Source of the DNA: an uncultured Acidobacteriota bacterium
GTDB lineage: Bacteria; Acidobacteriota; Thermoanaerobaculia; UBA5066; DATFVB01
Assembly (NCBI GenBank): GCA_963813155.1
Contig: CAWEYG010000005.1
Location: 215,786-279,785 of the forward strand
Reading direction: 5' to 3'
DNA length: 64,000 bases
The translations under genes were made by a program, and so were the position numbers. Under the pieces are notes generated by a model. It ran no database searches, was not told the origin of the DNA, and worked only from the letters and a program-made list of their open reading frames with translations. Below are positions 2,792-30,276 of this stretch, one piece after another (positions within the stretch are counted from its first letter, which is position 1; each line of letters begins with the position of its first letter).

Positions 2792-2798
2792 GGGCCGG

Positions 2799-8747: not shown

Positions 8748-8796
8748 GTTGGGGGAATAGTAGCGCCTTTTGCTAAGATCGCTCGGGAGGCTCTGC

Positions 8797-9988
<1,192 letters not shown>

Positions 9989-9994
9989 AGATCC

Positions 9995-10690
9995 GTGATC
10001 AACAAGGTCGTCGCGTCCGCCGATGAAGCCGTCCGGGACGTGCCGGACGGCGCGGTGCTCGTCGTCGGGGGATTCGGCCTTTGCGGCATTCCGGAAAACC
10101 TGATCGCCGCTCTCGTGCGAAAGAACGTCAGGAACCTGACGGCGGTTTCGAACAACTGCGGCGTCGACGACTGGGGCCTCGGGCTGATGCTCCGGAACAA
10201 ACAGATCCGGAAGATGATGTCTTCGTACGTCGGCGAGAACGCGGAATTCGAGCGCCAGTTCATCTCCGGGGAGCTCGAGGTCGAGCTCGTGCCCCAGGGC
10301 ACGCTCGCGGAGAGGATGCGCGCGGGAGGAGCCGGGATCCCCGCCTTCTACACGCCGGCGGGCGCGGGCACGCTCGTCGCGGAAGGAAAAGAGACGCGGT
10401 CCTTCGACGGCCGGGAATACCTGCTCGAGCGGGGGATCGTGGGCGACTTCTCGATGGTCGCCGCGTGGAAAGGGGACCGGTACGGAAATCTCGTGTACCG
10501 GAAGGCCGCCCGCAACTTCAATCCGATGGCCGCGACGGCGGGAAAGATCTCGATCGCGGAAGTCGAAGAGCTCGTCGAACCGGGCCAGCTCGACCCGGAA
10601 TGCGTGCACACGCCGGGAGTGTTCATCCATCGGGTCGTCGTCGCGCCGCGCGAGAAACGGATCGAGCGGCGAACGGTGTCGAAGGCGTGA
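9995..10690 (+). CDS. scoA: 3-oxoacid CoA-transferase subunit A
   Basis: [26 protein letters not shown] motifs. Confidence 0.92.
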
Positions 10691-10710: not shown

Positions 10711-11376
10711 ATGACGTTACCGCGCGAGGGGATCATCCGCCGGGCCACGAAAGAGTTGCGCGACGGATTTTTCGTCAATCTCGGGATCGGAATGCCGACG
10801 CTCGTCGCGAACCACATTCCTGCCGGCATGGAGGTCATCCTTCAGTCGGAAAACGGCATCCTCGGCGTCGGACCGTATCCGACGGAGGACAGGGTCGACG
10901 CGGACCTCATCAACGCGGGAAAAGAAACCGTGACGGTTCTGCCCGGCGCTTCGTACTTCTCTTCGGCAGACTCGTTTGCGATGATCCGGGGCGGGCACAT
11001 CGACCTCTCGATCCTCGGCGCCATGCAGGTGGACCGCGAGGGCTCGATCGCGAACTACATGATCCCCGGAAAGATGGTCAAGGGGATGGGGGGGGCCATG
11101 GACCTCGTCGCGGGCGCGAGACGGCTCGTCGTGACGATGGAGCACGTTTCGCGCGACGGCTCGCACAAGATCCTGGACGCGTGCACGCTGCCGCTGACCG
11201 GCCGGCGCTGCGTCCATCGGCTGATCACCGATCTCTGCGTGTTCGACGTGATTCCCCGGGGGGGAGGATTGCGCCTCATCGAGACGGCCCCCGGCGTCTC
11301 GCTCGAAGAAATCCGGACGAAGACGGGATGCGATTTTGAGGTCGCGGAACGTCTGGCAGTCATGGATGTCTCCTGA
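10711..11376 (+). CDS. scoB: 3-oxoacid CoA-transferase subunit B
   Basis: NLGIGMP, QSENG (catalytic Glu), GMGGAMDLV motifs. Confidence 0.92.
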
Positions 11377-13789
11377 CGCAGGTCGGCGAGCGGCATTCGT
11401 CTTCGTCGGCGTCCTCGCCGGCCTTCTCGGCGCCGGGAGCGCGGGAGCCCAGGTCGCCCAGAACTCTTTCGACGCGAGCGATCCATTCGCTTCGCGGTTC
11501 AAGGAAAAATCGCGGTTCGAGATCAAGCTCAAGCCCGTCAAGCCGGGCGGCCCGGTCAAGATTACGGCGCGCCAGGAGAACTGCCACGAGGACCTGAACG
11601 TTTGCGTCGCCGAGGGCGACGTCGTCGTCGAATACCAGGACGTGAGGATCCAGGCCGACAAGGTCACGTTCGACCGGCGCAACAGCCAGGGAGAGGCCGA
11701 AGGGCACGTGGTCATCGACCAGGGGCCGACGCGGATGGCGGGGAGCACCGGGACCTTCGACCTGATCGCGAAAACGGGAACGCTTCACGAAGCGGAAGCG
11801 GACCTGGAGCCGACCTTCCACGTGATCGCGAAGACGATTTCGAAGGTCGGGGAAGACACCTACGACATCGAAGACGGCATCTTCACCGCCTGCGCGGTTC
11901 CGAACCCGGCCTGGTCGTTCGCGATGAAAAAGGCGAGGGTCACGCTTGACGACTACGCGCGGATGAAAGACGTCGCCTTCCGCGCGGGGCGCGTGCCGCT
12001 GCTGTTTTCGCCCTACCTGCTCTGGCCGACGAAAGAAGGGCGGGTCTCGGGATTTCTCGTTCCGGGGCTCGGGTTCAACAGCACGCGCGGAGCGTTTCTC
12101 GGGCTCACGTATTACTGGGTGACGGGGCGCTCGACCGATCTCACTTCGGAGCTCGACCTGTATTCGAAAGGCGTCATCGGGCTCGGCGAGGAATTCCGGT
12201 GGGCGCCCTCGACGGAGTCCGCGGGCGTCTTTCAGGGCTTCGTGATCCGGGACAACCAGGCCGACATCTGCGTCCCCGGAACGTCGGCCGACCCTTCGAA
12301 GTTCTGCATCCAGCCGAACGGGACGTCGGGAATTCTCGAAACGACCGCCCAGACCCAGACGCGGTGGAAGATCCGCCTGGATCACTCCTCGAGCGATCTT
12401 CCGTGGGACATGCGCGGCGTGCTTTCGATCCGCGACTACTCCGACCCGAACTATCTGCAGGATTTCGAGCGGTCGTACGCGCTCAACTCGGCCCGGCAGA
12501 TCGTTTCGACGGGTTTCCTGACGAAAAACTTCGGCGACGATTCGCTGAACCTGCGGCTGGAACGAAGCGAGACCTTCTTTTCGAGCGATGCGCTGCTGGA
12601 GCGCACGCCGTCTCTCGAGTTCTCCCACCGGACCTCGAAGATCGGGGAAACGCCGCTGTACGCGGCGCTCGACGCGTCGTTCTCGCGCCTGTTCGTCAAC
12701 CGCGGGCCGGACGCGCCCCACGGCGGGTACGACCGGGCCGACCTGCATCCGGTCCTTTCGCTGCCGATCAAGAACATCCCCTGGCTTTCGCTCACCGCGC
12801 GGGTCGGCGGCCGCGTGACGGAGTACACCGATTCGGTGACGCCCCTGACCGGAACGGGGCAATCGTTCACGGGCCAGTCGCTTCTCCGGACGTATTCGGA
12901 AGCGAGCGCGTCGCTCGTCGGCCCGTCGTTCTCGCGGATCTACGATTTTTCGCTCGGGCCCTTCGAGCGCTGGAAGCACATCCTCGAGCCGCGCGTCGAC
13001 TACAACTACGTCGCCGACGTGCACTTCTCGCCCGCGCGAGACTGTTCCGACGTTGCATCCGGGTCGGAGTGTCCGCAGAACACGCTTGCGAACGTGCCGT
13101 TGTTCGACGAGATCGACTCCATCTACGGACAGAACTCCGTGACGTACCGGCTCGTAAACCGGCTGCTCGCCAAGGAAGGCGGCGAAAACGCCCCCGCCGC
13201 CCAGGAGATCGCGTCGCTCGACGTCTCGCAGACCTACAACTTCTCGTACCCGCAGACCGCTGTCTCGCCCGGAACGACGATCACGCTGCCCCCGCGGTCG
13301 GGCCCCATCCAGAGCGTTCTGCGGATCGCGCCCGTCCCCGCGTTCCACCTGGATGCGCAGGTCGCGTACGACCAATCGGTCTCGCGCGCGACCTCGTTTT
13401 CCTTTGCGGCGGGCGCGAACTGGAAGAACCAGTACGCGAGCGTTACCTGGACGGCCTCGCGGCCGACGCTGACGACGCCGCCGGGTCCGCCTCCGCCGGT
13501 CGGCTATCCCGTGACGTCGCCGAATTCCGATTTCATCCGGGCTTCCGCGGGCGTCAACCTGTTCACGCCGAAGCTTCGGCTCGACACGATGTTGAACTAC
13601 GACGCCCAGCTCAAGCAGGTGACGGAGGACCGGTCTCTCCTCACGTACAACGGCTCCTGCTACACGATCCTGCTCGAGGTCCGCAACCTCCGCGTGCCCG
13701 TCACGCGGCACGACTACCGCCTCGTCATCAACCTGAAGAACATCGGGACGCTGCTGGATTTGAACGGCGGACTGGACAAGATTTTCTAG
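11366..13789 (+). CDS. lptD: LPS-assembly protein LptD
   Basis: Signal peptide, OstA-like beta-jellyroll ([20 protein letters not shown]), SGFLVPGLG, long beta-barrel C-terminus. Confidence 0.85.
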
Positions 13790-13814
13790 CTACTCCTGAT
13801 AACATTGCCCGCCG

Positions 13815-14879
13815 ATGAAAGGCCTCATCCTCTCCGGCGGAAAGGGCACGCGCCTGCGGCCGCTGACGCACACCTCCGCGAAGCAGCTCGTGCCGGTCGC
13901 GAACAAGCCCGTTCTTTTCTACGCGATCGAGGCGATCGTCGCGGCCGGAATCCGCGAGATCGGGATCGTCGTCGGCGACACGCGCGAAGAGGTCAAGGCC
14001 GCCGTCGGCGACGGCTCCCGGTTCGGCGCGAAGATCCGCTACATCGAGCAGGACGCGCCGCGCGGACTCGCGCACGCGGTGCTGATCTCGGAGGATTTCC
14101 TTCGCGGCGAGCCGTTCGTCATGTATCTCGGCGACAACCTCATCGCGAGCGGCATCACCTCGCTCGTCGACGAATTTCAGCGGCTGAAGTGCAACTCCCA
14201 GATTCTCCTTGCGAAAGTTCCGAATCCGTCGTCGTTCGGGGTCGCCGAGCTGTCGGACGGCAAGATCGTGCGCCTCGTCGAGAAGCCGGAGCACCCGAAG
14301 TCGGACCTCGCTCTCGTGGGCGTGTACATGTTCGACGATTCGATCTTCGAGGCCGTCCACGCGATCCGCCCCTCGCCCCGCAACGAGCTGGAAATCACCG
14401 ATGCCATCCAATGGCTCGTCGATCACGGCCGCTCGGTGCATCCGCACCTGGTGACCGGCTGGTGGAAGGACACGGGCAAGGTCGAGGACATGCTGGAGGC
14501 CAACCGGATCATCCTCGACACGGTCCAGGCGACCGTTCCGGCGGCGCTCGGCCCGGGGTCCCGGCTGGAGGGGAAAGTCGTGCTCGAAGAAGGCGCCACG
14601 CTTCACAATGCGATCGTTCGCGGCCCCGCCGTCATCGGCAAGGGTGCCGTGATCGAGAACGCGTTCGTCGGTCCCTACACGGCGATCGGCGCCGGTTGCC
14701 GCATCGTGAACTGCGAGATCGAGAATTCGATCGTCTGGGAGGGCTCGGAGATCCGGGACATTCCGGTGCGGATTGCGGACTCGCTGATCGGGCGCGGCGT
14801 CAAGATTCATCGCGGCGAGATCCGCCCCAAGGTCCACCGGTTCCTCGTGGGGGACAACTCGGAAATCGGGATCGTATGA
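13815..14879 (+). CDS. rfbA: Glucose-1-phosphate thymidylyltransferase (long form)
   Basis: GGKGTRLRPLT, KQLVPVANKP, C-terminal hexapeptide repeats. Confidence 0.93.
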   Translation: MKGLILSGGKGTRLRPLTHTSAKQLVPVANKPVLFYAIEAIVAAGIREIGIVVGDTREEVKAAVGDGSRFGAKIRYIEQDAPRGLAHAVLISEDFLRGEPFVMYLGDNLIASGITSLVDEFQRLKCNSQILLAKVPNPSSFGVAELSDGKIVRLVEKPEHPKSDLALVGVYMFDDSIFEAVHAIRPSPRNELEITDAIQWLVDHGRSVHPHLVTGWWKDTGKVEDMLEANRIILDTVQATVPAALGPGSRLEGKVVLEEGATLHNAIVRGPAVIGKGAVIENAFVGPYTAIGAGCRIVNCEIENSIVWEGSEIRDIPVRIADSLIGRGVKIHRGEIRPKVHRFLVGDNSEIGIV

Positions 14880-15889
14880 AGATCCTCGTTACCGGCGGCT
14901 GCGGCTTCATCGGCAGCGCGTTCATCCGCAACCTCCTCGGGGGCCGCTCCGGGGTTTCCGTCGTCAACCTCGACAAGCTGACCTACGCCGGCAACCCGCG
15001 AAACGTCGCGGCGGTCGCCGATTCGCCTTCGTACCGTTTCGTGCTCGGCGACATCTGCGATCCGGCCGCCGTGGCCGACGCGATGGCGGGATGCGACGTC
15101 GTCGTGAATTTCGCGGCGGAGACGCACGTCGACCGGTCGCTGCTGGGAGACGCGTCGTTCATCGACACGGACGTCAAGGGCGTCTTCGTGCTGCTCGAAG
15201 AGGCGAAGCGAATCGGCGTGAAGAAGTTCGTCCAGATCTCGACCGACGAAGTGTACGGGTCGATCGAGTCCGGGAGTTTCACCGAGGATTCGAAGCTGAC
15301 GCCCCGAAATCCGTATTCGGCCTCCAAGGCCGGGGGCGACCGGATCGCGTACTCGTACTGGGCCTCCTACAAGGTGCCGGTCGTCATCACGCGGGCGTCG
15401 AACAACTATGGCCCCTACCAGTACCCCGAGAAACTCATTCCCCTCTTCGTGACGAACGCGCTCGACGATCTCCCCGTCCCTCTTTACGGCGACGGGAAAA
15501 ACGTGCGCGACTGGCTCCACGTCGACGACCACGCGGCCGCCGTCGAGTTCCTGATCGAGCGGGGCGAGCCGGGCGAGGTCTACAACGTCGCGGGCGGAAA
15601 CGAGACGGAAAACATCGAGATCACGAAGAGGATCCTGAAGATCCTCGGAAAGCCGGAAAGCCTGATCCGGCCGGTCGTCGACCGGTCCGGCCACGACCGC
15701 CGCTACTCGCTCGACGCGGGCAAGCTCGCGCGGCTCGGCTTTTCGCCGAAGCGCCGCTTCGACGAGGCGATCGAGTCCACCGTGTCCTGGTACGTCGATC
15801 ATCCCGAGTGGTGGAGGCCGATCAAGGACCACGACCCGCACTACCGCGATTACTACAAGACGCAGTATTCCGAACGCCTGCGCTCGTGA
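14876..15889 (+). CDS. rfbB: dTDP-glucose 4,6-dehydratase
   Basis: GGCGFIG, DKLTYAGN, AAETHVDRS, STDEVYG, YSASK. Confidence 0.95.
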   Translation: MKILVTGGCGFIGSAFIRNLLGGRSGVSVVNLDKLTYAGNPRNVAAVADSPSYRFVLGDICDPAAVADAMAGCDVVVNFAAETHVDRSLLGDASFIDTDVKGVFVLLEEAKRIGVKKFVQISTDEVYGSIESGSFTEDSKLTPRNPYSASKAGGDRIAYSYWASYKVPVVITRASNNYGPYQYPEKLIPLFVTNALDDLPVPLYGDGKNVRDWLHVDDHAAAVEFLIERGEPGEVYNVAGGNETENIEITKRILKILGKPESLIRPVVDRSGHDRRYSLDAGKLARLGFSPKRRFDEAIESTVSWYVDHPEWWRPIKDHDPHYRDYYKTQYSERLRS

Positions 15890-16737
15890 AGCCTCGGATC
15901 CTCGTCACCGGCGGCGGGGGAATGCTCGCGCTCGACCTGAAGCCGCGGCTCGAGGCCGCGGGCTACGAAGTCGTCTCGCCGAAAAAGGCGCAGCTCGACA
16001 TCACGCAGGCCGGCCACGTTTCCGCGATCCTCGCGACGCTCAAACCGCAGGCGGTTTTCAATTGCGCGGCGTTCACGAAGGTCGACCTCTGCGAAACCGA
16101 CCCGCTTGCGGAAACCGTCAACGACGCGGCGGTCGGAAATCTCGCGGAGGCGTGCCGTGCCGCCGGCGTCCGGCTCGTGCAGGTTTCGACGGACTTCGTT
16201 TTCGACGGGGAGAAACGGGAGCCGTACCGCGAAGAGGACGAACCCGCGCCCCTTTCGGCGTACGGCCGGACGAAACGCGGCGGAGAGCTCCGGGCCCTGT
16301 CGCTGCCGGGCACTCTCGTCGTGCGCGGCTCGTGGCTGTTCGGAAACCGCGGCCCGAACTTCGTCGAGGCGATCCTGAAACAGGCGGAAGCGGGTAAACC
16401 AAATGTTCGGGTCGTGACCGACCAGGTCGGCCGCCCGACGGCGACGACGGATCTCGCGGAGGCGCTCGTCGAGCTGTACCGGATCGGGACTGAGGGGATT
16501 GTTCACTTCGCCAACTCCGGCGAGGTCACGTGGAACGAATTCGCGAGAGAGATCCTGCGGCAGGCGGGCCATTCCGGCGTCGAAGTCGTTCCGATCACCT
16601 CCGAGGAGCTGAACCGCCCCGCCCGCCGCCCCGCGTATTCCGTTCTTTCGACCGAGAAATACGAGAAGTTGACGGGCAACCAGCCGCGCGACTTCCGCGA
16701 ACCGCTCGCGGAGTACCTGGACCGTCGGAAGAAATAG
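15886..16737 (+). CDS. rfbD: dTDP-4-dehydrorhamnose reductase
   Basis: GGGGMLA, STDFVFDG, YGRTK, DQVGRPT, ARRPAYSVL. Confidence 0.93.
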   Translation: MKPRILVTGGGGMLALDLKPRLEAAGYEVVSPKKAQLDITQAGHVSAILATLKPQAVFNCAAFTKVDLCETDPLAETVNDAAVGNLAEACRAAGVRLVQVSTDFVFDGEKREPYREEDEPAPLSAYGRTKRGGELRALSLPGTLVVRGSWLFGNRGPNFVEAILKQAEAGKPNVRVVTDQVGRPTATTDLAEALVELYRIGTEGIVHFANSGEVTWNEFAREILRQAGHSGVEVVPITSEELNRPARRPAYSVLSTEKYEKLTGNQPRDFREPLAEYLDRRKK

Positions 16738-16942
16738 CTCGCTTGCCGTCGTTCGCGGCTTGGCCCCAGCGCCGGCTCGGCGAGCGGGTCCTGTCGCGGC
16801 ACTCGACCCACTTTTCCGCTCGCTGCGGGTATTAGGACTTTGCTACGACTCCGCGCCGCGAGCGGCAAAAGGGGTCTCGCGCCCCGCCACCCGCTCTCTT
16901 CTTTGCGCCTGCGCGTTGGCCCGGCCGCGCCAGGGCTTCGCT
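16735..16942. repeat. Structured intergenic repeat, copy 1 (REP/MITE-like)
   Basis: Shares TAGCTCGCT..TTCGCGGCT..GCCCCAGCGCC.GCTCGGC and GCCTGCGC..GTTG.CCCGGCCGC..GGGC.TTCGCT with 30852-30994; long internal hairpin. Confidence 0.75.
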
Positions 16943-16946
16943 TCGG

Positions 16947-17856
16947 TTACGGCCGCGCCTGCGCGAGCGGGTAGCTGCGCTCCATGCCCTTCCGTCACGC
17001 CGATCGGGTCGTAGCCAAGGTCGCGGCGGGCTTCGGAATTGTCGGGCGCGGCGTCCTGCTCGATGCGGCTGATCGCGTAGCGCGTCAGCGGCGGGTTCTT
17101 CATCGTTTTTTCCAGGACGAAAGCCGCCGCGCGGCAGATCGGGAGCGGAATGTGGACGAACGGCTTGGACACTCCCTGGTGGCGGAGCATCAGCTTCGCG
17201 AGGTCGCGGATCGAGATCTCCTCTCCGCCGCTGAAGTTGTAAATCTTGCCGTGGCTCTTCGGGTTGTTCGCGATCGCGAGAAGGCCGCGTCCGATGTCTT
17301 CGACGAAAACGGGGTTTTTCTTCGCGAGGCCCCGTCCAACGAAAGGAACGACCGGGTATTTCAGGAGCGATTCGAGAAATCCCATGAATTCCAACCCGCC
17401 ACCGTTTTCGTACGCGAGCGTCGGACGCACGATCGTCCACGCCATCGGGCTCGCGGCGCGGACGATCTCCTCCGCGTCCGCCTTGGAGCGGGCGTATTCG
17501 GAAATCGGGTCGATCGCGGAAGTCGAGGAGATGAACACGAAGTGCTTCGCGCCGGCGCGCCGCGCCGCCTCGACGACGTTCCTCGTTCCCTCCGTGTTGA
17601 CGCGCCGGAAAATCGACGGATCGCTCGACAGGATCACGCCCGCCAGGTGAAATACCGTCTCGACTCCTTCGAAGAGTCCGGCGAGAGTCTCGGCCCACGC
17701 GATGTCGCCGAAGACGATTTCGGCGTTCACGCCTTTCAGCCGCGCCGCGTTCGGGTCGCCGGGCAGCGTCAGGGCCCGCACGCGGTGGCCGGCCGCGGCG
17801 AGGTCTTTGACGAACCGCGCGCCCATCACTCCCGCGCCCCCCGTGACGAAGATCAA
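16947..17856 (-). CDS. NAD-dependent epimerase/dehydratase (SDR)
   Basis: TGGAGVMG, YARSK; removing one G near 16988 gives ...GVTEGMERSYPLAQARP* with TAA at 16947. Confidence 0.85.
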
Positions 17857-18596
17857 GCTTCGCCCCCGACGAGCGTCCCATAGTAGCCGCGCCGGTAGCG
17901 TCGAACGACGGCGAGCACGTCGAGGCCGTAGGAAACCGGCTTCAGGTGCGAGACCTCGTCCGCGTATCGAGTGGGAATCGCGATCTCCGCGATCCGCAGG
18001 CCGAGGATTCGCGCGCACACGAGCATTTCGAGATCGAAGTCGAAGGAGTCGGACAACCGGGCGAACGGAATCGACTCGAGCGACTTCCGCGAGTAGAGCA
18101 TGTAGCCGCTGTGGAACTCCGCCAGGCGCATGCCGAAAGCCCGGTTCTCGACGGCCGTCAGGAGGCGGTTCGCCGCGTACTTGTAGAAGGGCATTCCGCC
18201 GGCGAGCGCTCCGCCTCCGAGCATTCGCGAGCCCTGCACCAGGTCGGCTTCGCCGCGGCGCAGGGGCGCGGACAGTTCCGGGAGCTTTTCGGGGGCGTAT
18301 TGCCCGTCCGCATGGACGATCGCGGCGATGTCCACCCCGGTCTCGAGGGCGTGGGCCAGGAGCGTCTTGACCGCGCCGCCGTACCCGCGGTTTTTCGGAT
18401 GCCGAAGGATCACGAGCGTCGGCAGCTCGGATCGGAGACGTTCGAGAACCTGCGCGGTGTCGTCCGAGCTGCCGTCGTCCACGGCCGCGTAGTGCATCTC
18501 CAGGCCGGGGGAATCCCGGGGAATTCGGCCGACGAGCCGCTCCAGCGTGAGCGCCGCGTTGTAGGCCGGAATCGCGATCAGAAGAGAATCAGGCAT
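17853..18596 (-). CDS. GT2 polyprenol-phosphate glycosyltransferase (DPM1-like)
   Basis: IPAYN, VDDGSSD, NRGYGGA, HADGQY, GSR, FDFDLEML. Confidence 0.9.
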   Translation of the reverse strand: MPDSLLIAIPAYNAALTLERLVGRIPRDSPGLEMHYAAVDDGSSDDTAQVLERLRSELPTLVILRHPKNRGYGGAVKTLLAHALETGVDIAAIVHADGQYAPEKLPELSAPLRRGEADLVQGSRMLGGGALAGGMPFYKYAANRLLTAVENRAFGMRLAEFHSGYMLYSRKSLESIPFARLSDSFDFDLEMLVCARILGLRIAEIAIPTRYADEVSHLKPVSYGLDVLAVVRRYRRGYYGTLVGGEA

Positions 18597-19707
18597 CCGA
18601 TCGGGTGCGGCCGGGCAACGAAGGGGAGGTCCCGGCCGGCTGCCGGGCCGCTTCGCGGCGGGCGTTCACGTAGTACTGCATGGTGGGAACCAGCATTTCG
18701 GACAGCCCGGTTTTCGGCTGCCATCCCAGAAGGCGCTGGGCCTTGCCGATGTCGGGGATGCGGCGGTCCGAATCCTCGTATCCATCCCCGTAAAACTCCT
18801 TCGCGGAGACCTCGACGATTTCCGGCAGGGAGGCGTCCGGGGCGAAGTGGCGCGCGTACAGCTCCCTCATCAACTCGGCCAGCCGGCGAATCGAGACTTC
18901 GTTGTCCGGTGAACCGATGTTGAAGATCTCGCGGTCACATCCTCCCCCCGGGTTTTCCACGATCCGCGCGACGCAATCGACCGCGTCCTTGATGTAGGTG
19001 TAGCAGCGGCGCTGGGCGCCGCCGTCGACGAGCTTCATCGGAGTGCCTTCGAGCAGCGCTTCCATGAAATACGAGAAGACGCGCGGCACGCCGTCGGTGT
19101 CGCCCGGCAGGTAGTCGATCTTCGGGCCGATGAAGTTGAACGGCCGAATGATCGTGTAGTTGAGGCGCCCTTCCAGCCCGTAGGCGTGGATCACGCGCTC
19201 CAGGAGCTGCTTTGCGCAGGCGTAGATCCATCGGTGCCGGCCGACGGGCCCCATGATGAGGTCGGTGCGGTCCTCCGCAAAGGTCGCGTAGGCGGGGTTT
19301 TCCGGGTCCGCGATCAACTCTCCCAGCACGGCCACGGGCGTTTTGCCGTAGACCTCGCAGGAAGAAAACTGGATGAGCCGCCGATTCTTGCGAATGCACG
19401 ACTCGGCGATCCGAAGATTCTCCTGGAAGTTGAGCCGGAAGACCTCGAGCGGGCTTCGGACGTAGATCCCCGGGTTCGCGTGCGCGACAAGATCGACGAC
19501 CACGTCCGCCGCGGCGACCGCGCCGTCGAGGTCGAACGTCCGGTCGGTCACGTCCCTTTCGACGAACGTCAGGCGCGGGTGGTTGAGCAAATCCGCGATT
19601 TTGTCCGTGTGCACGTCGATTCCGGTCACGTCGTGCCCGTTTTCGAGCAGACGTTCCGCGAGATGCGCTCCGATGAAACCCCCCGCCCCCAGACTCAGCA
19701 CCTTCAC
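18589..19707 (-). CDS. UDP-glucuronate decarboxylase, UDP-apiose/UDP-xylose synthase (UAS/AXS)-like
   Basis: GAGGFIG, FSSCEVYGKT, WIYACAKQL, RPFNFIGP, GVPRV, KLVDGG, EFYGDGYEDSDRRIPD. Confidence 0.8.
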   Translation of the reverse strand: MKVLSLGAGGFIGAHLAERLLENGHDVTGIDVHTDKIADLLNHPRLTFVERDVTDRTFDLDGAVAAADVVVDLVAHANPGIYVRSPLEVFRLNFQENLRIAESCIRKNRRLIQFSSCEVYGKTPVAVLGELIADPENPAYATFAEDRTDLIMGPVGRHRWIYACAKQLLERVIHAYGLEGRLNYTIIRPFNFIGPKIDYLPGDTDGVPRVFSYFMEALLEGTPMKLVDGGAQRRCYTYIKDAVDCVARIVENPGGGCDREIFNIGSPDNEVSIRRLAELMRELYARHFAPDASLPEIVEVSAKEFYGDGYEDSDRRIPDIGKAQRLLGWQPKTGLSEMLVPTMQYYVNARREAARQPAGTSPSLPGRTRSDA

Positions 19708-19856: not shown

Positions 19857-21236
19857 ATGGCCCCGAAACCGCGAATTCCGGCCCACGATGGGAAGCGAAA
19901 GGCGCTCCACGCGGGGATGGGGCTGTTCGCGGTCGCGCTGCGCTTCCTCTCCTGGCCGGCCGCGGCCGTGCTTGCCGCTGCCGCGCTGGTCTTCAACGTC
20001 CTGGTCATGCCCCGGTTCGGGCGGGGGGTCTACCGGGACGCGGGCAAGCGGCACGATCCCGGGATCGTCGCCTACCCGGCCGTCGTGCTCGCCGTGGTCC
20101 TGCTCTTTCGGCACGATCTGGAGGTCGCGGCGGCGATCTGGGGAATGATGGCGCTGGGCGACCCGCTGGCCTCCGTTGCCGGGAAGAAGATCGGCGGACC
20201 AGCCCTTCCGTGGAACCCCGGGAAGACCTGGTCCGGCTCGATCGCCTACGCGGCGCTGGGTGGCCTGGCGGGCTCGCTTCTGTACGGGTTCGTCGGGCGC
20301 ATTCCGTTCAGCGCCGCGTTTTCCGCCTTCGCCGTCTTTGCGGTGCTCGGAGCTTTCCTCGAGTCGATCGAGACGGGATTCGACGACAATCTGACGCCGG
20401 GCCTCGGCGTTGCGTTCGCCTACGGGACTTTTCACCTCGGGGTGTTCGTCTGCGGAGGGTTCTCCCTTTCCGGCGTCGCTCCCGTTTCTCTTCCCGTCGC
20501 TTTCGCCGTCAACACGGCGATCGCCGGCCTCGCGACCGCCCTCCGGGTCGTTTCGCTCTCGGGGGGAATCGCGGGAGCGATCGCGGGTCTCGTCGTTCTT
20601 CGCTTCGGGGGATGGGGAGCCTACGCGGTCCTCTGGGCCTTCTTTCTCTTCGGGACCGTCGCCTCGAAGCTCGGATATTCGCGCAAGGAGCGACTCGGCA
20701 CCGCCCAGGCGAACCGGGCTCGCCGCGGCGCGCGCCACGTGGCGGCGAACGTCGGAGTCGGGGCATGGCTCGCCTTCGCGGCGGGCTCTCGAGCGGCGGC
20801 GGCGCCGATCCTGGCTCTCGCGATTTCCGGGGCCTTTGCGGCGGCGCTTGCCGACACGTTCGGCACGGAGCTCGGGACGCTCTACGGGCGGGCCCCGTTC
20901 CTGATTTCGCGAGGACGGTCCGTCGCGCCCGGCACCCGGGGGGCGGTCTCTCTGGCGGGGCTTCTCGGAGGTCTTCTCGGAGCGGCCCTCATCGGCACCG
21001 TCGGGGCGGCCGCCGGCCTCTACGCCGCCCGTCTCGTCTGGATCGTCGTCCTGGCGGGGATGCTCGGATCGGTCGGGGAGAGTCTCCTGATCGACCTCTC
21101 GGCCCGGAGCGGGATTTCTGCCGACCACGAGTTCTGCAACGCGTTCAACACTCTCGTGGGGGCGGCAGCCGCGGTCGAGATCGCGGCTTCCCTCGCGCTC
21201 GGCCGCGCGTATCTTCCGTTTTCGGGGCTCGCGTGA
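19857..21236 (+). CDS. Fusion of a phytol/dolichol-kinase-like domain and DUF92 (VTE5-VTE6-like)
   Basis: N-half: RKALH, GDPLASVAGKKIG, NPGKTWSGS, DDNL. C-half: RGARHVAAN, ADTFGTELG, PGTRGAVSLAG, N.FNT. Confidence 0.85.
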   Translation: MAPKPRIPAHDGKRKALHAGMGLFAVALRFLSWPAAAVLAAAALVFNVLVMPRFGRGVYRDAGKRHDPGIVAYPAVVLAVVLLFRHDLEVAAAIWGMMALGDPLASVAGKKIGGPALPWNPGKTWSGSIAYAALGGLAGSLLYGFVGRIPFSAAFSAFAVFAVLGAFLESIETGFDDNLTPGLGVAFAYGTFHLGVFVCGGFSLSGVAPVSLPVAFAVNTAIAGLATALRVVSLSGGIAGAIAGLVVLRFGGWGAYAVLWAFFLFGTVASKLGYSRKERLGTAQANRARRGARHVAANVGVGAWLAFAAGSRAAAAPILALAISGAFAAALADTFGTELGTLYGRAPFLISRGRSVAPGTRGAVSLAGLLGGLLGAALIGTVGAAAGLYAARLVWIVVLAGMLGSVGESLLIDLSARSGISADHEFCNAFNTLVGAAAAVEIAASLALGRAYLPFSGLA

Positions 21237-22225
21237 AGCGTTCCTCGCTGGCCGCCCATCTCGCCCTGTGGCGGCCGTTCACGCTGTTGCCGCCGCTTCT
21301 CGGGATCCTCTCCGGCGCGATCTGCGCGTACGGGTCCGCGCACAACCCGGACCCCGCCCGCCGCGTGACGGGGGCGGTGCTCTTCACCGTGATCCTCGGC
21401 TCGATCTGCGCCTCGGCGATGAACGCCGCTTCGAACATCGTCAACCAGATCGCCGATCTCGAGATCGACCGGAAGAACAAGCCGGGGCGCCCGCTCGTCA
21501 CGGGCGAGGTCTCGATCCGATCCGCCTGGAGGGTCGCCTGGGGGCTCTACGCTTTTTCGATTCTGCCCACCTGGTTCGTCGTGCCGTTTCCCCGGACGAG
21601 CTTCCAGGAGCGCCTCACGGCCCCGTTGATCGAGCACGCCTGCTTCTTCATCTACGCGATCGGCCTCCTCGCGACGTTCGTGTATTCCTTCCCGGCGCTC
21701 GGCCGCACCAAGCGCCACTGGTTCTGGGCGAATTTCACGATCGCGTCGACCCGGGGATGCCTCCTGAAGGTCGCGGGATGGTCCTTCCTCGCCCGGGTGA
21801 GCAGCTGGGAGCCGTGGGCGCTCGGGGGCGTGATGGGACTCTTCCTTCTCGGGGCGACTTCGACGAAAGATTTCTCCGACATCGAAGGAGACGCAATGCA
21901 CGGGTGCCGGACGCTGCCGATTCGTTTTGGCGTTTCGGGCGCCGCGAAGATCATGGCCCCGTTTTTCGTCGTTCCGTGGCTGCTGCTTTCCGCCCTTGCT
22001 TTCGCGCCGGACCCGGCTCGCGCGGGATCCCCGCTCCTGACGGGCAACCATGCCTTTCTCCTGTCGTTCGGCATTGCGATGGCGGCCTGGGGGGCCTACA
22101 CGGCGTCGCTGCTTCTCCGCGACCCCGACGCCCTGACCTCGACGGAGAATCACCCGGCCTGGCGGCACATGTACTTGATGCTCATGGCCGCTCAAACGGG
22201 TTTCGCCGCGGCATATCTGGTGTAA
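21233..22225 (+). CDS. UbiA-family prenyltransferase, homogentisate prenyltransferase-like
   Basis: RPFTL, NQIADLEIDRKNKPGRPL, YSFP..RTKR, KDFSDIEGD; GTGA overlap with the kinase fusion. Confidence 0.85.
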   Translation: MKRSSLAAHLALWRPFTLLPPLLGILSGAICAYGSAHNPDPARRVTGAVLFTVILGSICASAMNAASNIVNQIADLEIDRKNKPGRPLVTGEVSIRSAWRVAWGLYAFSILPTWFVVPFPRTSFQERLTAPLIEHACFFIYAIGLLATFVYSFPALGRTKRHWFWANFTIASTRGCLLKVAGWSFLARVSSWEPWALGGVMGLFLLGATSTKDFSDIEGDAMHGCRTLPIRFGVSGAAKIMAPFFVVPWLLLSALAFAPDPARAGSPLLTGNHAFLLSFGIAMAAWGAYTASLLLRDPDALTSTENHPAWRHMYLMLMAAQTGFAAAYLV

Positions 22226-24663: not shown

Positions 24664-25215
24664 ATGTCGGCCCGCGAACCGAAAATCGTTTCGAGCGCGC
24701 GCCCTTCCGCGGCGTCCGACCCGGAAGCCATGACCCGGCGCGACGCCGTCAAGTGGCTGACGCTGGCCTGGGTCGGGTTCGCCGCGGCGGTCGGAGCCGC
24801 GTTGACGGCCACGGCCCGCTTCATGTTTCCCAACGTCCTGTTCGAGCCGCCGACCCTCTTCAAGGCCGGCCTTCCGTCCGACTACGGCCTCGGAGTCGAC
24901 GAGCGGTGGAAGGAGCGTTACGGCGTCTGGGTCGTCCGGAACACGACGGAAATCTACTCGCTCATTTCGGTCTGCGTGCACCTGGGCTGCACGCCGAACT
25001 GGCTCGCGGCGCAGAACAAGTTCAAATGCCCGTGCCACGGTTCCGGCTACTACATCTCCGGAATCAATTTCGAGGGGCCGGCGCCCCGCGCGCTCGAGCG
25101 GGCGGCGATCTCGGTTTCCCCCGACGACGGCCAGCTGATCGTCGACAAGGGCACGAAGTTCCTGTTCGAGCAGGGCCAGTGGACCGACCCCAAGGCTTTC
25201 GTGAAAGTCGGATAA
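24664..25215 (+). CDS. Rieske iron-sulfur subunit of a Rieske/cytochrome b complex
   Basis: TRR Tat-type anchor, CVHLGC, CPCHGSGY, GPAPRAL. Confidence 0.93.
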   Translation: MSAREPKIVSSARPSAASDPEAMTRRDAVKWLTLAWVGFAAAVGAALTATARFMFPNVLFEPPTLFKAGLPSDYGLGVDERWKERYGVWVVRNTTEIYSLISVCVHLGCTPNWLAAQNKFKCPCHGSGYYISGINFEGPAPRALERAAISVSPDDGQLIVDKGTKFLFEQGQWTDPKAFVKVG

Positions 25216-25282
25216 GATCGCTCGCGATTTTCCTGAGGATGCCGGTGAATCAACTGCTGCGTGACGAGTGCGAGGTTCGGGC

Positions 25283-26072
25283 ATGATCGACAGGCTCCGC
25301 GACATTCAGAAGTCGGTCGTCGACAGCCAGATCTGGAAATCGATCTTCCGGGTCGGCGTGCCCAACACGAACCGCAAGCGCGTTCTCGCGATGCTCGGCA
25401 ACGTCGTCCTCCACCTGCATCCGGTCAAGACGCGCAAGTCGGGCGTGAAGATGCGCTACACCTGGTGCGCCGGGGGAGTGACGTTCTTCCTCTTCCTCGT
25501 GCTGACGTTCACGGGCCTGCTCCTGATGTTCTACTACCGGCCGACCGTCGAATACGCCTACGTCGACGCTCTCGACCTGAGGGAACAGGTGCCGTTCGGA
25601 ATCATGCGCGAGATCCACCGATGGGGCGCGCACGCGATGGTGATCGCGGTCTGGATTCACATGTTCCGCGTCTTCATGACCGGCTCCTACAAGCCGCCGC
25701 GCGAGTTCAACTGGGTCGTCGGCGTGATCCTGCTCGTGCTGACCCTGCTCCTGTCCTTCACCGGCTACCTGCTGCCGTGGGACCAGCTCGCGATCTGGGC
25801 GATCACGGTCGGCTCCAACATGGCGGGCGCCACGCCCCTCGTCGGCACGCAGGGCCCGGGCACGGCGCTGCTCAAGATCGGCGACATCTCGCTCGTGACG
25901 TCGACCGACGACGCGCGATTCGCGCTGCTCGGCGGGCGGTTCGTGGGCGCCGGAGCCCTGCTGCGCTTCTACGTTCTCCATTGCGTCGGCATCCCGCTCG
26001 TCGCGGCGTTTCTCGATGGCGGTTCATTTCTGGCGCGTCCGGAAGGACGGCGGAATCAGCGGACCGGTCTGA
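25283..26072 (+). CDS. Cytochrome b6-like N-terminal subunit (apparent frameshift near 26017)
   Basis: [31 protein letters not shown]; corrected C-terminus [18 protein letters not shown]. Confidence 0.9.
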
Positions 26073-26085
26073 GCGGCGGACAGCA

Positions 26086-27174
26086 ATGATCGTCGTTCAG
26101 TTTCTCGAATCCGTCGTCAATTTTCTGTGCAAGCCGCAGATCTTCGTGCCCGCTCATGGGCATCGCGCTCTTCACCGCGCTCTACACGAAGTGGCTGTGG
26201 ACTCCCCGGGGCGGGTTCACGCTGATCCTGGCGGTCAGCCTGTTTTTCCTCGTTTCGTATTTCGACCCGAATTTCAAGAAGGTCGCCTCCGCGCCCGACA
26301 ACGTTCCGATCGTCGGGATGATCTTCATCATCCTGTTCTACCTCTGGTACGCCATGCACCAGGCGAAGAACAACGACGAGCGCATCGCGCAGGGCCTCGG
26401 GCCCAACGAGGGACGAGGATTCCTACCAGAAAGTCTTCTCGTGGCCCGACCTCGTGTACATCGAGCTGATCTGCCTCGTCCTGGTCTCCGCGCTGCTCAT
26501 CGTGTGGTCGATCTTCCTGAAGGCCCCGCTGGAAGAGCCCGCGAACCCGACGAACTCACCGAATCCCGGCGAAGGCCCCCTGGTACTTCCTCGGGCTGCA
26601 GGAAATGCTCGTGTACTTCGATCCGTGGCTCGCCGGCGTCGTGCTGCCGGGCCTGATCATCGTCGGACTGATGGCGATCCCGTACATCGACGTCAACCCG
26701 AAGGGCAACGGCTACTACACGTTCAAAGAGCGGAAGTGGGAGATCTCGATCTTCCTGCTCGGGTTCCTGATCTTCTGGATCGTCCTGATCTTTCTCGGCA
26801 CGTTCCTCCGCGGCCCGAACTGGAATTTCTTCGGCCCGTACGAGCTCTGGGACCCGAACAAGCTGGAGCCGCTGAACAACATCAACATTTCCGAAATCGT
26901 CTGGGTCAAGATGCTGCACAAGGGGCTGCCGACGTTCTGGCTGCTTCGCGAGGTCGTCGGCCTCGGCTTCATCCTGGTCTATCTCGGAATTCTTCCGGTC
27001 GTCCTGTCGAGGACCCTCTTCCGCAGGTTCTACGAGAAAATGGGGCCCGTCCGGTATTACGTCGGCTGCCTGCTGCTGCTCGTGATGTTCCTGATGCCGA
27101 TCAAGATGTTCCTGCGGTGGACGCTGAACCTGAAGTACATCGTCGCGATTCCGGAAGTCTCCTTCAACATCTGA
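26086..27174 (+). CDS. Cytochrome b subunit IV-like protein with extra TM helices (three apparent frameshifts)
   Basis: Pieces join to ...WPDLVYIE...[32 protein letters not shown]...; breaks near 26150, 26411 and 26566. Confidence 0.82.
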
Positions 27175-27184
27175 GGAACGCGAA

Positions 27185-30100
27185 ATGCCGAGGAGACCGC
27201 CCGCCGAGCCCATCGACCACCACTACAACATCGCCCGGCTGACGCGCGTTTTCGCGCTGTCCGGCCTGATCGTCCTCGTCTGTTCGGTCGCGATGATCTG
27301 GACGGACTATCGCGAGCGGCTGGAGCTTCACGAAGAGCTGGAAGGGCTACCAGCTGCAATTCCTCGAAGTCGATCGCCAGAAGACGAAGCCAGGACCTGG
27401 CCGCCGCCCGCGAGAAGGTCTCTCGCGAGGACTACGACGCGGCCGAGACGCAGCTGCACGCGGCGCAGGCCGAGCAGGCGGAGAGCCGCAAGGCGGCCGC
27501 CCGGCTGAATCAGCAGATCAAGGATACCGACGCCGTCCGGTACCGGGACGACCAGAACTATCGGTTCGAGAAGGCGGTCGTCGACACGGCGCGGTACGAG
27601 CTGGAAGTGGCGGAGGATTCCGGGAACGATGCCGCGATCCGGAAGCGGCGCAAGGAGTTCGACGATCTCGCAGCCGATCTGCAGAAGAAACAGCTCCAGC
27701 TCCAGGCGACGACCGCGAAGCTGAACGACCTCAAGTCGCAGGCCGACGCGCTGACCGAGAAGGGGACCGACGCGGACAAGAAGATCAAGGCCCTGACGGC
27801 GAACTTCACGCTCGCGGCCAGGAAGCTCGGGTCGCTCAAGGAAGACGCGATCTTCAAGAGCCGGAATGCCCCGATCCTCGACATGGTCAACCCGTCGATC
27901 AAGGTCCAGCAGGTGATCCTGCCGGACCTGTTCAACGACGTGAACTTCATGAAGATCCCGCGGGTCGACCGCTGCATGTCGTGCCACATGGGCGCCGACA
28001 AGAGGGGCTACACGCCCGAGGCCGTCGCGAAGATCCCGGAAGTCTTCCAGAGCCATACGAACCTTTCGCTCATTCTCGGAAGCGAGTCGCCGCACACGCT
28101 CGCCGATTTCGGGTGCACGTCCTGCCACGGCGGACACGACCGCTCGACGTCCTTCTTCCACTCGGCTCATCAGCCTTCGAGCAAGGCCGAGGAGGCGAAG
28201 TGGGAGAAGAAATACGGCTGGGAGCTCGACGAGTTCGTCGAGATGCCGATCTACCCGATCCGATACGCGCAGGCCGGCTGCTACCGCTGCCATTCCCGGG
28301 AAGTGAACTTTCCGACGGCGCCGCGGCTCGACGCGGGCCTGCGCATCATCGAATCTCTCGGCTGCTGGGGATGCCACCGGATCAAGGGCTTCGAGGATCA
28401 GCACCTTCCGAAAGTCGGCCCGTCGCTCGCCAAGATCGCCGGGAAGGTCAGCCCGGACTGGGCGGTTCGCTGGATTTCGAATCCAACGGCGTTCCGCTCG
28501 AGCACGAAGATGCCCAGGTTTTTCTACCTCGACAATTTCGTTCACAACGAAGGGATCGACCCGAAGACGGGCCGATACCGCTCACCCAATCGGATGCAGC
28601 AGAGCCAGAATGAGGAAGGGCGCCGCATCAACGACACGATGGTGCGCGCGATCGCCGCGTACCTGTTCGACAAGTCCCAGAAACCCGCGGCTCCCGTCGC
28701 GGCAAGAACGGGCGACGCCGTCCACGGCAAGTGGCTGTTCGAAAACCGTGGGTGCATGGGGTGCCACGTGCTCGAGCCCGGCGCGAAGCGCGACCTGATC
28801 GGGACGTATCGGCAGTTCGGGCCCAATCTCGCGGGCGTCGGTTCCAAGGACAGCCGGGACTGGATCTTCGCCTGGATCAAGGACCCGAAAGCGTGGAATC
28901 CCGAGACGAAGATGCCGAATCTTCGGTTGTCCGACGAAGACGCGGCGGACGTCTCGGAATACCTGTCGCGGCAGAAAGCGCCCGCCGGGTTCGACGCCGA
29001 AGGGATTCCCGAGCCCGACAAGGCGTCACTCGACAAGATCTCCATGTATTTCGAGACGACGACGAGATCGATCGTCGACGCGAGGGCGGACCTCGCGAAA
29101 ATGTCGCAGCCGCAGGAGCTGTCGTACGCGGGCGAGAAGCTGATCGCCCACTACGGATGTTTCGCCTGCCACGACATCCCGGGCTTCGAAGACGCGAAGC
29201 CGATCGGCACGGAGCTCTCGGAGTGGGGAAACAAGGCGCCCCACCGGCTGGATTTCGGGTTCATCGACATCGACCACACGCGGCAGGACTTCATCCGCAC
29301 GAAGCTCGGCAACACGCGCATCTACGACCAGGACAGGGTCCGCGGGTGGGAAGAGAAGCTGAAGATGCCGCTGTTCTCCTTCTCCGAGCCGGAAAAAGAC
29401 GCCGTGATCACGGCGGTGCTCGGCTTCCAGAAGGACGACATGGCGGACTCGAAGAAGAAGCGCCTCTCGGCCGAGGAAGTTTCGATCGAGCGCGGCCGGC
29501 GCATCATCAAAGACCACAACTGCCAGGGCTGCCATGTCCTGGAAGGCCGGGGAGGCTCGATCCGCGACACGATGCCCGACGTGTCGCTCGCGCCGCCGAT
29601 CATCAAGGGTGAGGGCGCGAAGGTCCAGAGCGACTGGCTCTTCGCGTTCCTGAGCTCGCCGAAGACGGGGCAGATCCGCCCCTGGCTGCAGGTCCACATG
29701 CCGACGTTCGGCTTCACCGACGGGCAGCTGAACGACCTGACGCGCTATTTCGCGTCGCTGTCGAAGGCGTCGTACCCGTTCCTCCTGGCCGACAGCCAGC
29801 CCGATCCGAAGTCGCTCGCCTCGGGCAGGAAAGTCTTCGAGATGTACCGCTGCTTTCAGTGCCATCCGAAGAGCCAGCAGGAAATGGATAAGGTCGAAGA
29901 CAAGTCGTCTCTCGCGCCGAACCTGCAGATGGCCCATGGCCGGCTGCGCCACGACTGGATCAACGACTGGATTTCGCGCCCCGATGACTGGCTGCCGGGA
30001 ACCCGGATGCCGACGAACTTCCCGAAAGACGACACGACCGGAAATCGTTACGTCACGCTCGCGCTCGGCTGGGACTCGCCCCAGATCGCGAAGGACCGGG

Positions 30101-30276
30101 CGGAGCTCGAGCGAATCTGGGGAAGCCCGAAGGCAGCCGCGGACTTCATCCACGACGTCGATCGCGTGACGCGCTCCCTGCGCGACTACGTCTGGTCGAT
30201 CGGGGAAGGTTCGCCGGCGCAGGCCGAGAACGCCCCGAAACCGGCGAAGGCGCGCCGGCTCTCGGCCTCTCGTTGA
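27185..30276 (+). CDS. Membrane-anchored octaheme cytochrome c with coiled-coil stalk (apparent frameshifts near 27310 and 27391)
   Basis: Eight CxxCH motifs: CMSCH, CTSCH, CYRCH, CWGCH, CMGCH, CFACH, CQGCH, CFQCH; N-terminal TM in ORF 27185. Confidence 0.88.

What the first reader, a model, noticed from the sequence alone, without database searches (positions are those of the whole stretch)
19857..22225. Plant-like prenol salvage module: VTE5-VTE6-like kinase fusion coupled to a homogentisate-prenyltransferase-like enzyme
Seen: one gene joins a CTP-dependent polyprenol kinase domain (RKALH, GD..A...G, PGKTWSGS, DDNL) to DUF92, and overlaps (GTGA) a UbiA gene with NQIADLEIDRKNKP, YSFP..RTKR..FTIASTRGCLL and KDFSDIEGD. 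Known: Arabidopsis VTE5 (phytol kinase) and VTE6 (DUF92 phytyl-phosphate kinase) make phytyl-PP for VTE2/HPT. NQxxDxxxD and KDxxDxxGD are the HPT/HST motif pair, and the RxKR...IAxxRGxLL stretch resembles HST as I recall it. Inference: a two-gene pathway (free prenol to prenyl-P to prenyl-PP to a prenylated acceptor) in a window with no photosynthesis genes. The product could be a tocopherol/plastoquinone-like lipid or an ether lipid, possibly made from scavenged phytol.
Basis: partly seen in the sequence, partly recalled or inferred. Interest (0 to 1): 0.85.

Follow-up and report, generated by a model that had tools for sequence, protein, structure and literature searches.

The report
Prenol-recycling kinase feeding an orphan prenyltransferase
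A soil Acidobacterium carries a conserved gene pair, a two-step kinase that probably re-activates free isoprenoid alcohols and an uncharacterised prenyl-transferring membrane enzyme, which usually travels with a secreted phosphodiesterase and points to an undescribed envelope lipid pathway rather than to vitamin E synthesis.

Summary
Observation confirmed: a 459-aa kinase-like/DUF92 fusion (K) overlaps by GTGA a 330-aa UbiA gene (U) in a Thermoanaerobaculia genome. In 300 Acidobacteriota genomes, 94 of 97 with U have K; 59 are tandem. U is not a homogentisate prenyltransferase: 61 bits against a cut-off of 226, outside the HPT/HST clade, and 75 of 97 U genomes lack hppD. It does share HPT/HST pocket residues and may be their sister (unproven; ChlG or DGGGPS not excluded). 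Two further parts emerged: a secreted AlkP phosphodiesterase (96 of 97 U genomes, own subclade, fused to U in other phyla; in this genome on another contig) and a farnesol-dehydrogenase-like SDR beside K in 44 genomes (not found in this genome). Best reading (0.4): a plant-style prenal/prenol salvage line supplies prenyl-PP to U, whose product is processed on the periplasmic side by AlkP, freeing prenol again. The acceptor is unknown; nothing is shown biochemically. The kinase fusion itself is published for archaea, and this scan met the module seven times before on other DNA.

The parts
19857..21236 (+). K: 459-aa membrane protein, predicted two-step prenol kinase (COG0170-like N half + DUF92/COG1836 C half)
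   Evidence: function inferred from VTE5/FOLK and VTE6
19881..20435 (+). N-terminal kinase-like domain (residues about 9-193); R14, H18, G101, D102, K123, G127, E169, D177, N178 invariant in 26 orthologues
   Evidence: alignment A3, model helices, 4 of 26 members hit PF01148
20511..21191 (+). DUF92 / TIGR00297 domain (residues about 219-445); D333, T334, E338, S365, G368 invariant
   Evidence: best structural match CarS 5GUF, Z 6.5 only
21233..21236 (+). GTGA start/stop overlap, consistent with translational coupling
21233..22225 (+). U: 330-aa UbiA-superfamily prenyltransferase of an unnamed clade; both Asp-rich motifs intact; clade signature ENHPxWxHMY near the C-terminus
11336..16737 (+). 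Context: lptD followed by rmlA-, rmlB- and rmlD-like genes, the ancestral neighbourhood of K in many relatives
   Evidence: lptD by Pfam; rml labels by reading the translations; recurrence
16843..19707 (-). Context: inverted block of SDR, GT2 glycosyltransferase and NDP-sugar epimerase, standing where many relatives have the farnesol-dehydrogenase-like gene

Best explanation
K and U are the inner-membrane core of a short-chain prenyl (most likely farnesyl or geranylgeranyl) transfer-and-recycling loop tied to the cell envelope. (1) K's N half phosphorylates a free allylic prenol with CTP and its DUF92 half adds the second phosphate (inferred from VTE5/FOLK and VTE6). (2) U uses the prenyl diphosphate, from K or from IspA/CrtE-type synthases, and puts the prenyl on a small anionic acceptor that is not homogentisate (donor chemistry inferred from intact motifs; acceptor unknown). 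(3) A secreted AlkP-superfamily enzyme of a U-associated subclade acts on the phosphorylated product on the periplasmic side, hydrolysing it or handing its phospho head group to an envelope target, and frees the prenol (inferred from fusion, topology and co-occurrence). (4) K recovers the prenol; a farnesol-dehydrogenase-like SDR, present in about half of the carriers but not found in this genome, recovers prenol that was oxidised to the aldehyde. Shown: the genes, their domains, linkage and phylogeny. Inferred: every reaction. My odds by step: K makes prenyl-PP 0.8; K serves U 0.9; AlkP is in the pathway 0.75; the loop closes as drawn 0.35-0.4.
For: K with U: 94 of 97 versus 13 of 203; 59 tandem, 66 within 5 kb; 60 of 70 close loci with room upstream; a clean DUF92-U fusion exists (P0288). 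AlkP: in 96 of 97 U genomes, single copy in 85, whereas 85 of 94 U-negative carriers have two or more; 24 U-genome copies and 3 UbiA-fused domains fall on one side of an SH 99 branch with only 2 copies from U-negative genomes; UbiA-AlkP fusions in three separate 50% clusters, named Planctomycetota and Deltaproteobacteria for two of them; AlkP-SDR-K-U is one operon in G148 and four congeners, AlkP-K-U in G033. Free-standing AlkP has signal peptides and the fused one follows U's ninth helix, which faces outward by analogy with DGGGPS. SDR: named farnesol dehydrogenase by JGI, nearest atlas cluster 80% eukaryotic, mostly Streptophyta; 50 of the top 52 hits in U genomes, 44 adjacent to K; FLDH, FOLK and a prenyl-phosphate kinase are the plant farnesal salvage line (PMC13415981). 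K without U is kept in a genome with three chlorophyll synthases (G281), which fits a prenyl-PP supplier.
Against: No activity is shown for any part. The acceptor is unknown and no gene for making one co-locates with U. U's pocket shares N64, Q72, R174, W310 with HPT/HST, which suits an aromatic acid as well as a phospho-acceptor. AlkP is not linked to K-U in this genome (C2 versus C5) or in most others; two U-negative genomes (G230, G250) keep the U-side AlkP and have no U even by profile; G045 has U with neither K nor a sampled U-side AlkP, and G041 has U with no AlkP match. The AlkP copies in the tree were picked by score to a U-genome query and kin are not independent. K persists in 13 genomes without U. 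The SDR is missing from about half of U genomes and from this one; its name is an automatic annotation. The lptD-rml neighbourhood may be inherited gene order.
Confidence: 0.4

Rival explanations
1. U C-prenylates an aromatic acid other than homogentisate with HPT-like chemistry, giving a prenylquinol-type redox or antioxidant lipid; K recycles the side chain and AlkP is incidental or removes a phosphate.
For: HPT/HST-specific residues N64, Q72, K83, I170, R174, W310, Y314 are kept, and most map by spacing to residues docked near substrate in barley HPT (PMC10617047); the family profile scores HST highest (108 bits); mixture-model tree groups U with HPT/HST at 89/78.
Against: The grouping is unstarred and 28 in the simpler model; ChlG (103 bits, p-AU 0.4-0.5) and DGGGPS (p-AU 0.3) are not rejected. 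No methyltransferase, cyclase or hydroxylase recurs near U. It does not explain the fusion to a secreted phosphodiesterase. MqnP already covers menaquinone.
Confidence: 0.2
2. U is DGGGPS-like and makes a prenyl ether on a glycerophosphate or lysolipid, giving a hybrid isoprenoid/acyl (or alkyl) bacterial lipid that AlkP dephosphorylates or remodels.
For: Best fold match is DGGGPS 6M31/7BPU, Z 26.9, rmsd 3.8-3.9, 278 aligned; top NCBIfam hit is archaeal PRK12884; a phosphorylated acceptor would suit AlkP; fatty-acid-desaturase-like fusions exist.
Against: No HPT or ChlG chain appears among the listed fold rows, so the ranking is not discriminating; DGGGPS references score only 67 bits on the family profile; no GGGPS over cut-off in 5 of 5 carriers, no geranylgeranyl reductase over cut-off in 5 of 5.
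Confidence: 0.15
3. The module mainly scavenges outside isoprenoids (phytol, prenyl phosphates): AlkP strips phosphates in the periplasm, the alcohol diffuses in, K re-activates it and U spends it.
For: AlkP is secreted; PF01663 members hydrolyse phosphoanhydrides and diesters (PMC5133447); the host DNA occurs in soil metagenomes (three runs with a share of 0.2 or more).
Against: AlkP is fused to U, never seen fused to K; carriers make their own prenyl-PP (2-3 polyprenyl synthases in 5 of 5; dxs seen in this genome by inspection).
Confidence: 0.1
4. U is ChlG-like and esterifies a carboxylate (for instance a tetrapyrrole propionate) with prenyl-PP.
For: ChlG is the second-best NCBIfam hit for ORF2 and the best for two relatives; P21, G207, F214, P229 are shared with ChlG; U+ChlG not rejected; K accompanies chlorophyll synthases in G281.
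Against: 88 bits against a cut-off of 313; ChlG has ND, ND and Y where U has NQ, KD and R174; no photosynthesis context; AlkP unexplained.
Confidence: 0.08
5. One reading: U prenylates homogentisate to a tocopherol- or plastoquinone-like lipid.
For: NQxxDxxxD, KDxxDxxGD and R174 shared with HPT/HST; this genome has an hppD-like gene at 275 bits against 277.
Against: hppD in 22 of 97 U genomes versus 71 of 203 others; this genome's hppD sits on another contig; no tocopherol cyclase hit in 5 carriers (weak control); outside HPT/HST clade; His of RPHT absent.
Confidence: 0.07

Closest known systems
Plant prenol salvage: FLDH, FOLK/VTE5 and VTE6 (PMC13415981, PMC5694494, PMC9782597; passages)
   Same: Same three enzyme types: FLDH-like SDR (in relatives), COG0170-type kinase half, DUF92 half; ends in a UbiA-family consumer.
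   Different: Two kinases in one chain, in an operon, in non-photosynthetic bacteria; consumer is not HPT or ChlG; prenylcysteine lyase not found (but nothing rang in controls).
Archaeal COG0170-COG1836 two-domain proteins, e.g. Mbar_A3310 (PMC5898192, section 3.4 read whole)
   Same: Same domain order and predicted isoprenoid kinase role; the fusion type is already in print.
   Different: Archaeal context is uppS; here the partner is an orphan UbiA, an SDR and AlkP.
Homogentisate prenyltransferases HPT/HST/HGGT
   Same: NQxxDxxxD and KDxxDxxGD motifs, N64, R174, W310; nearest known clade in the mixture-model tree.
   Different: Far below the family cut-off, outside the clade (stem 2.06 changes per site), RPFT for RPHT, own ENHPxWxHMY end, no link to hppD.
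DGGGP synthase and chlorophyll synthase
   Same: Same fold (Z 26.9 to DGGGPS), RP after the first motif, about 22-30% identity.
   Different: Below cut-offs; no GGGPS or photosynthesis genes with it.
ebo operon, EboC + EboF (PMC5133447; abstract and passages)
   Same: An orphan UbiA enzyme paired with a PF01663 phosphodiesterase.
   Different: U is not EboC (30 bits against 250; separate in trees); no sugar-phosphate cyclase recurs beside U; ebo has no prenol kinases.

Membership tests
HPT/HST homogentisate prenyltransferases | Score over NCBIfam NF009525 cut-off (226) | tested here: not met
   ORF2 61, relatives 100 and 111; algal HST-like and cyanobacterial controls 257-474
HPT/HST homogentisate prenyltransferases | Falls inside the HPT/HST clade | tested here: not met
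   HPT/HST 100/100 without U; U+HST rejected p-AU 0.0002
HPT/HST homogentisate prenyltransferases | NQxxDxxxD and KDxxDxxGD motifs, Arg in helix 5 | tested here: met
   Q72 28 of 32, K212/D213 32 of 32, R174 32 of 32
HPT/HST homogentisate prenyltransferases | RPHT N-terminal His | tested here: not met
   Phe in 25 of 32 family rows; His in 26 of 26 references, but the references were fetched with a pattern that demands this His
HPT/HST homogentisate prenyltransferases | Homogentisate supply (hppD) in carriers | tested here: not met
   22 of 97
HPT/HST homogentisate prenyltransferases | Prenylates homogentisate in vitro | not testable with these tools
   needs assay
DGGGP synthase | Score over PRK12882/3/4 cut-offs; GGGPS partner | tested here: not met
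   56, 51, 92 bits against 296, 353, 269; PcrB none over cut-off in 5 of 5
DGGGP synthase | Sister or member in a tree | tested here: inconclusive
   p-AU 0.31 with only 4 references, none from methanogens or Crenarchaeota
Chlorophyll synthase ChlG/BchG | Score over cut-off; ND motifs | tested here: not met
   88 against 313; NQ and KD instead of ND
Chlorophyll synthase ChlG/BchG | Sister group in a tree | tested here: inconclusive
   p-AU 0.40 and 0.51
UbiA superfamily | PF01040 over cut-off, nine-helix fold, two Asp-rich motifs, YSxxxxxxK motif | tested here: met
VTE6 / COG1836 (DUF92) | PF01940 over cut-off with conserved acidic residues | tested here: met
   139 against 27.5 bits; D333, E338 invariant; TIGR00297 106 against 206, below cut-off
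VTE5/FOLK / COG0170 prenol kinase | CTP-transferase family hit and RKxxH, GD, KxxxG, DN motifs | tested here: inconclusive
   motifs invariant (their meaning is recalled); PF01148 in 4 of 26 members only; no VTE5 sequence was held for a direct comparison, so VTE5 versus Sec59 or Dgk1 is open
VTE5/FOLK and VTE6 | CTP-dependent phosphorylation of prenol and prenyl-P | not testable with these tools
   needs assay
ebo operon | EboC orthologue with eboA/B/D/E/F | tested here: not met
   EboC 30 against 250 bits; separate in trees

The most novel reading that the evidence does not exclude
Acidobacteriota and several other lineages run an undescribed isoprenoid carrier cycle: a UbiA enzyme joins a short prenyl chain to the phosphate oxygen of a head group, a periplasmic AlkP enzyme transfers that phospho head group to LPS or another envelope polymer, and the freed prenol is recycled by a fused double kinase: an isoprenoid counterpart of the PG/OpgB/DgkA cycle (recalled), and possibly the prokaryotic root of both the plant FLDH-FOLK-VTE6 salvage line and the HPT/HST lineage.
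Probability: 0.2. Interest if true: 0.85.

Novelty: new variant of a known kind. Interest (0 to 1): 0.62.

Why it matters
About a third of sampled Acidobacteriota genomes (97 of 300), an abundant soil phylum, carry a conserved prenyltransferase with no known product, and it reaches Planctomycetota, Deltaproteobacteria and Micrarchaeia. The UbiA superfamily has few acceptor types; a clade wired to a full plant-style salvage line and a secreted phosphodiesterase probably makes a lipid nobody has looked for. It also offers a one-chain bacterial model for prenol and prenyl-phosphate kinases, whose genes are still missing in many organisms (PMC9782597, PMC13415981), and a candidate outgroup for the vitamin E prenyltransferases.

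Tried and rejected
Triple K-U 'fusions' P0243, P0244, P0248, P0249 and the sulfotransferase fusion P0245 show garbled junctions and are read as frameshift read-throughs, not used as fusion evidence. Structure of K: no Foldseek match, best wide match CarS at Z 6.5 is within the range of common helical packing; PDB sequence search with the K profile gave 0. No chlorophyll synthase or HPT chain was among the listed fold rows for U, which excludes nothing. Prenylcysteine lyase search rang nowhere, controls included. Tocopherol cyclase control was weak: no control genome passed the cut-off. The polyprenyl synthase upstream of U in G005 is plain IspA-type and near universal. This genome's best SDR hit is HpnA-like in a hopanoid cluster, not the K-adjacent clade. 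Desaturase-like domain of the fusions has no hit in this genome. A link to hybrid isoprenoid/branched GDGTs found one paper in the listing and no support. vom Dorp 2015 and Seaver 2014 are not held; I recall that they discuss COG1836 fusions or clustering but could not check. No complex prediction was run. No supplementary files were opened; trees in the supplements of PMC7852524 and PMC5133447 may already contain this clade unnamed.
Full report
Observation. ORF1 (K, 19857-21236, 459 aa) and ORF2 (U, 21233-22225, 330 aa) are intact, overlap by GTGA and hold every motif quoted. K has DUF92 at 219-411; U is PF01040. Named relatives are Thermoanaerobaculia/Acidobacteriota. The genome (G000) is 90.8% complete.

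Linkage. Of 300 other phylum genomes, 97 have a strong U match (one weak hit, a bacteriochlorophyll synthase in G281, was dropped). 94 of the 97 have a K match spanning both domains (five of them as two adjacent pieces, possibly split genes), against 13 of 203 without U. Of 95 with both, 59 are tandem K then U, 4 adjacent on opposite strands, 3 within 5 kb, 1 far, 28 on different contigs. Among the 80 best of 565 close loci, 60 of 70 with room upstream have K adjacent. Kin are not independent, so I give no p value. G024 (unpublished) contributes one genome to each phylum count (U, K, tandem, single AlkP, no hppD); no claim depends on it.

What K is. Twenty-six orthologues keep the N-half residues R14, H18, D102, K123, D177, N178 and the C-half D333, T334, E338. 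Four of 26 hit CTP_transf_1. The model is confident (pLDDT 89) but its best match, CarS, is weak (Z 6.5). The COG0170-COG1836 fusion is described in archaea with a predicted isoprenoid kinase role (PMC5898192, section read whole); VTE5 and VTE6 phosphorylate phytol in two steps (PMC5694494, PMC9782597, passages). K also stands without U in a genome with three chlorophyll synthases, as a prenyl-PP supplier would.

What U is. The genome has separate CyoE and MqnP and one more unassigned UbiA. U scores far under every NCBIfam cut-off. References were taken from session loci: HPT- and HST-like genes from a metagenome pattern scan (five checked pass the HPT cut-off; the HST label rests on a recalled motif), ChlG, DGGGPS and EboC from annotated plasmids and G281. 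In a 68-row tree U's family is one clade (86/98) apart from HPT/HST (100/100). In a 46-row mixture-model tree, with long outgroups left out and divergent members added, it groups with HPT/HST at 89/78, unstarred, across a stem of 2.06. AU tests reject U+HST (p 0.0002) but not U+ChlG (0.40, 0.51) or U+DGGGPS (0.31). Residues are a mosaic: N64, Q72, R174, W310 as in HPT/HST; R86, P229, F214, G207 as in ChlG or DGGGPS; Phe for the His of RPHT. The fold is closest to DGGGPS among listed solved chains. A profile search gave 325 representatives at 1e-30; of 20 looked up, names point to Planctomycetota, Deltaproteobacteria and Micrarchaeia, most have none.

Acceptor tests. hppD is in 22 of 97 U genomes and 71 of 203 others; this genome has one just under cut-off on another contig. 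In five near-complete carriers there is no tocopherol cyclase hit, and no GGGPS or geranylgeranyl reductase over cut-off. All five have 2-3 polyprenyl synthases. So neither tocopherol nor archaeal ether synthesis is the general purpose, and salvage is not forced by lack of synthesis.

Third part, AlkP. Three 50%-clusters fuse U to a PF01663 domain (P0265, P0342, P0381). The same family occurs in 96 of 97 U genomes, single in 85; 94 of 203 U-negative genomes also have it, 85 of them in two or more copies, in the loci read mostly as a tandem pair, often near sulfotransferase or sulfatase genes. In a 49-row tree an SH 99 branch puts 24 U-genome copies, 3 fused domains and 2 U-negative copies (G230, G250) on one side and 15 U-negative, 3 extra and 2 G045 copies on the other (G198 was not extracted). 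This genome's copy is at C2, 705 aa, with a signal peptide. U has an N-terminal helix plus nine helices like DGGGPS, whose cavity opens to the cytoplasm, so a C-terminal fusion should also lie outside (inference).

Fourth part, SDR. An earlier scan note on a conserved reductase sent me to the gene upstream of K. It is HpnA-like below cut-off, called farnesol dehydrogenase by JGI in two of six clusters looked up, with a mostly plant cluster first in the atlas. Of the top 52 hits (threshold set after seeing the list) 50 are in U genomes and 44 touch K. It was not found in this genome, whose best hit groups with HpnA beside hopanoid genes. In plants FLDH reduces farnesal, prefers C15, and feeds FOLK and a prenyl-phosphate kinase (PMC13415981, passages).

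Mechanism. The parts read best as a loop: prenyl-PP from K or IspA/CrtE, transfer by U to an anionic acceptor, periplasmic processing by AlkP, recovery by K and the SDR (0.4). All reactions are inferred. K often sits after lptD and NDP-sugar genes (LptD-like in 11 of 20 wide loci), which suggests the envelope but may be inherited order, since it holds also where U is absent. Rivals are an aromatic acceptor other than homogentisate (0.2), a glycerol ether (0.15), scavenging (0.1), an ester (0.08) and homogentisate (0.07).

Novelty. Ten literature searches found the archaeal fusion, the plant pathway and the ebo operon (a different UbiA with a PF01663 partner, PMC5133447), and no description of this clade or module; PMC7852524, PMC3223725, PMC5462960, PMC9385802 and PMC10617047 were seen as passages only; subscription papers and supplements were not seen. 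The scan itself noted the module in seven other genomes. Verdict: real, conserved, a new variant of prenol salvage tied to an orphan prenyltransferase; interest 0.62.

Noticed in passing
window 24664-30276: Rieske, cytochrome b and multihaem cytochrome c genes; cytochrome b looks split over 25268-26089, 26156-26656 and 26605-27174, and other ORFs (2788-4059, 8770-10026) end in garbled text, suggesting assembly indels in this contig.
   Followed up: no
window 16843-19707 (-): Inverted SDR / GT2 / NDP-sugar epimerase block sits where relatives have the farnesol-dehydrogenase-like gene.
   Followed up: partly
L158, L168 and similar metagenome loci (L161, L166, L172, L182, L187, L205): HPT-like genes outside the cyanobacterial clade; two tested pass the HPT cut-off (278, 346 bits). 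Hosts unknown; may be non-photosynthetic bacteria.
   Followed up: partly
L283-L292: Tandem pair of AlkP genes with a 63-aa protein and a 277-aa protein without Pfam hits, often near sulfotransferase or sulfatase genes, in genomes without U: a separate uncharacterised system.
   Followed up: partly
G000:C3:984290-985042; L313, L314, L389: Third, CrtE-like polyprenyl synthase in Thermoanaerobaculia; near the U-side AlkP in G276 and divergent from U in G282; ispA lies directly upstream of U in G005.
   Followed up: partly
P0246, P0254, P0391: U fused behind a fatty-acid-desaturase-like domain (PF00487) with clean junctions; the domain has no hit in this genome.
   Followed up: partly
L369 (G000:C6:212000-221000): Hopanoid-type cluster (squalene-hopene cyclase-, hpnH-, hpnA-, dxs-like by inspection) in a Thermoanaerobaculia genome; PMC5462960 found no squalene genes in cultured SD23.
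   Followed up: no
L148 (G000:C3:172374-173051): Fourth UbiA-family gene with no NCBIfam hit at 1e-18 and a very long branch.
   Followed up: no
L325:3797-4684: DGGGPS-like gene among hydrogenase maturation genes on an Acaryochloris plasmid.
   Followed up: no
L301, L409 (G230, G250): U-side AlkP kept in two genomes where neither K nor U was found.
   Followed up: partly
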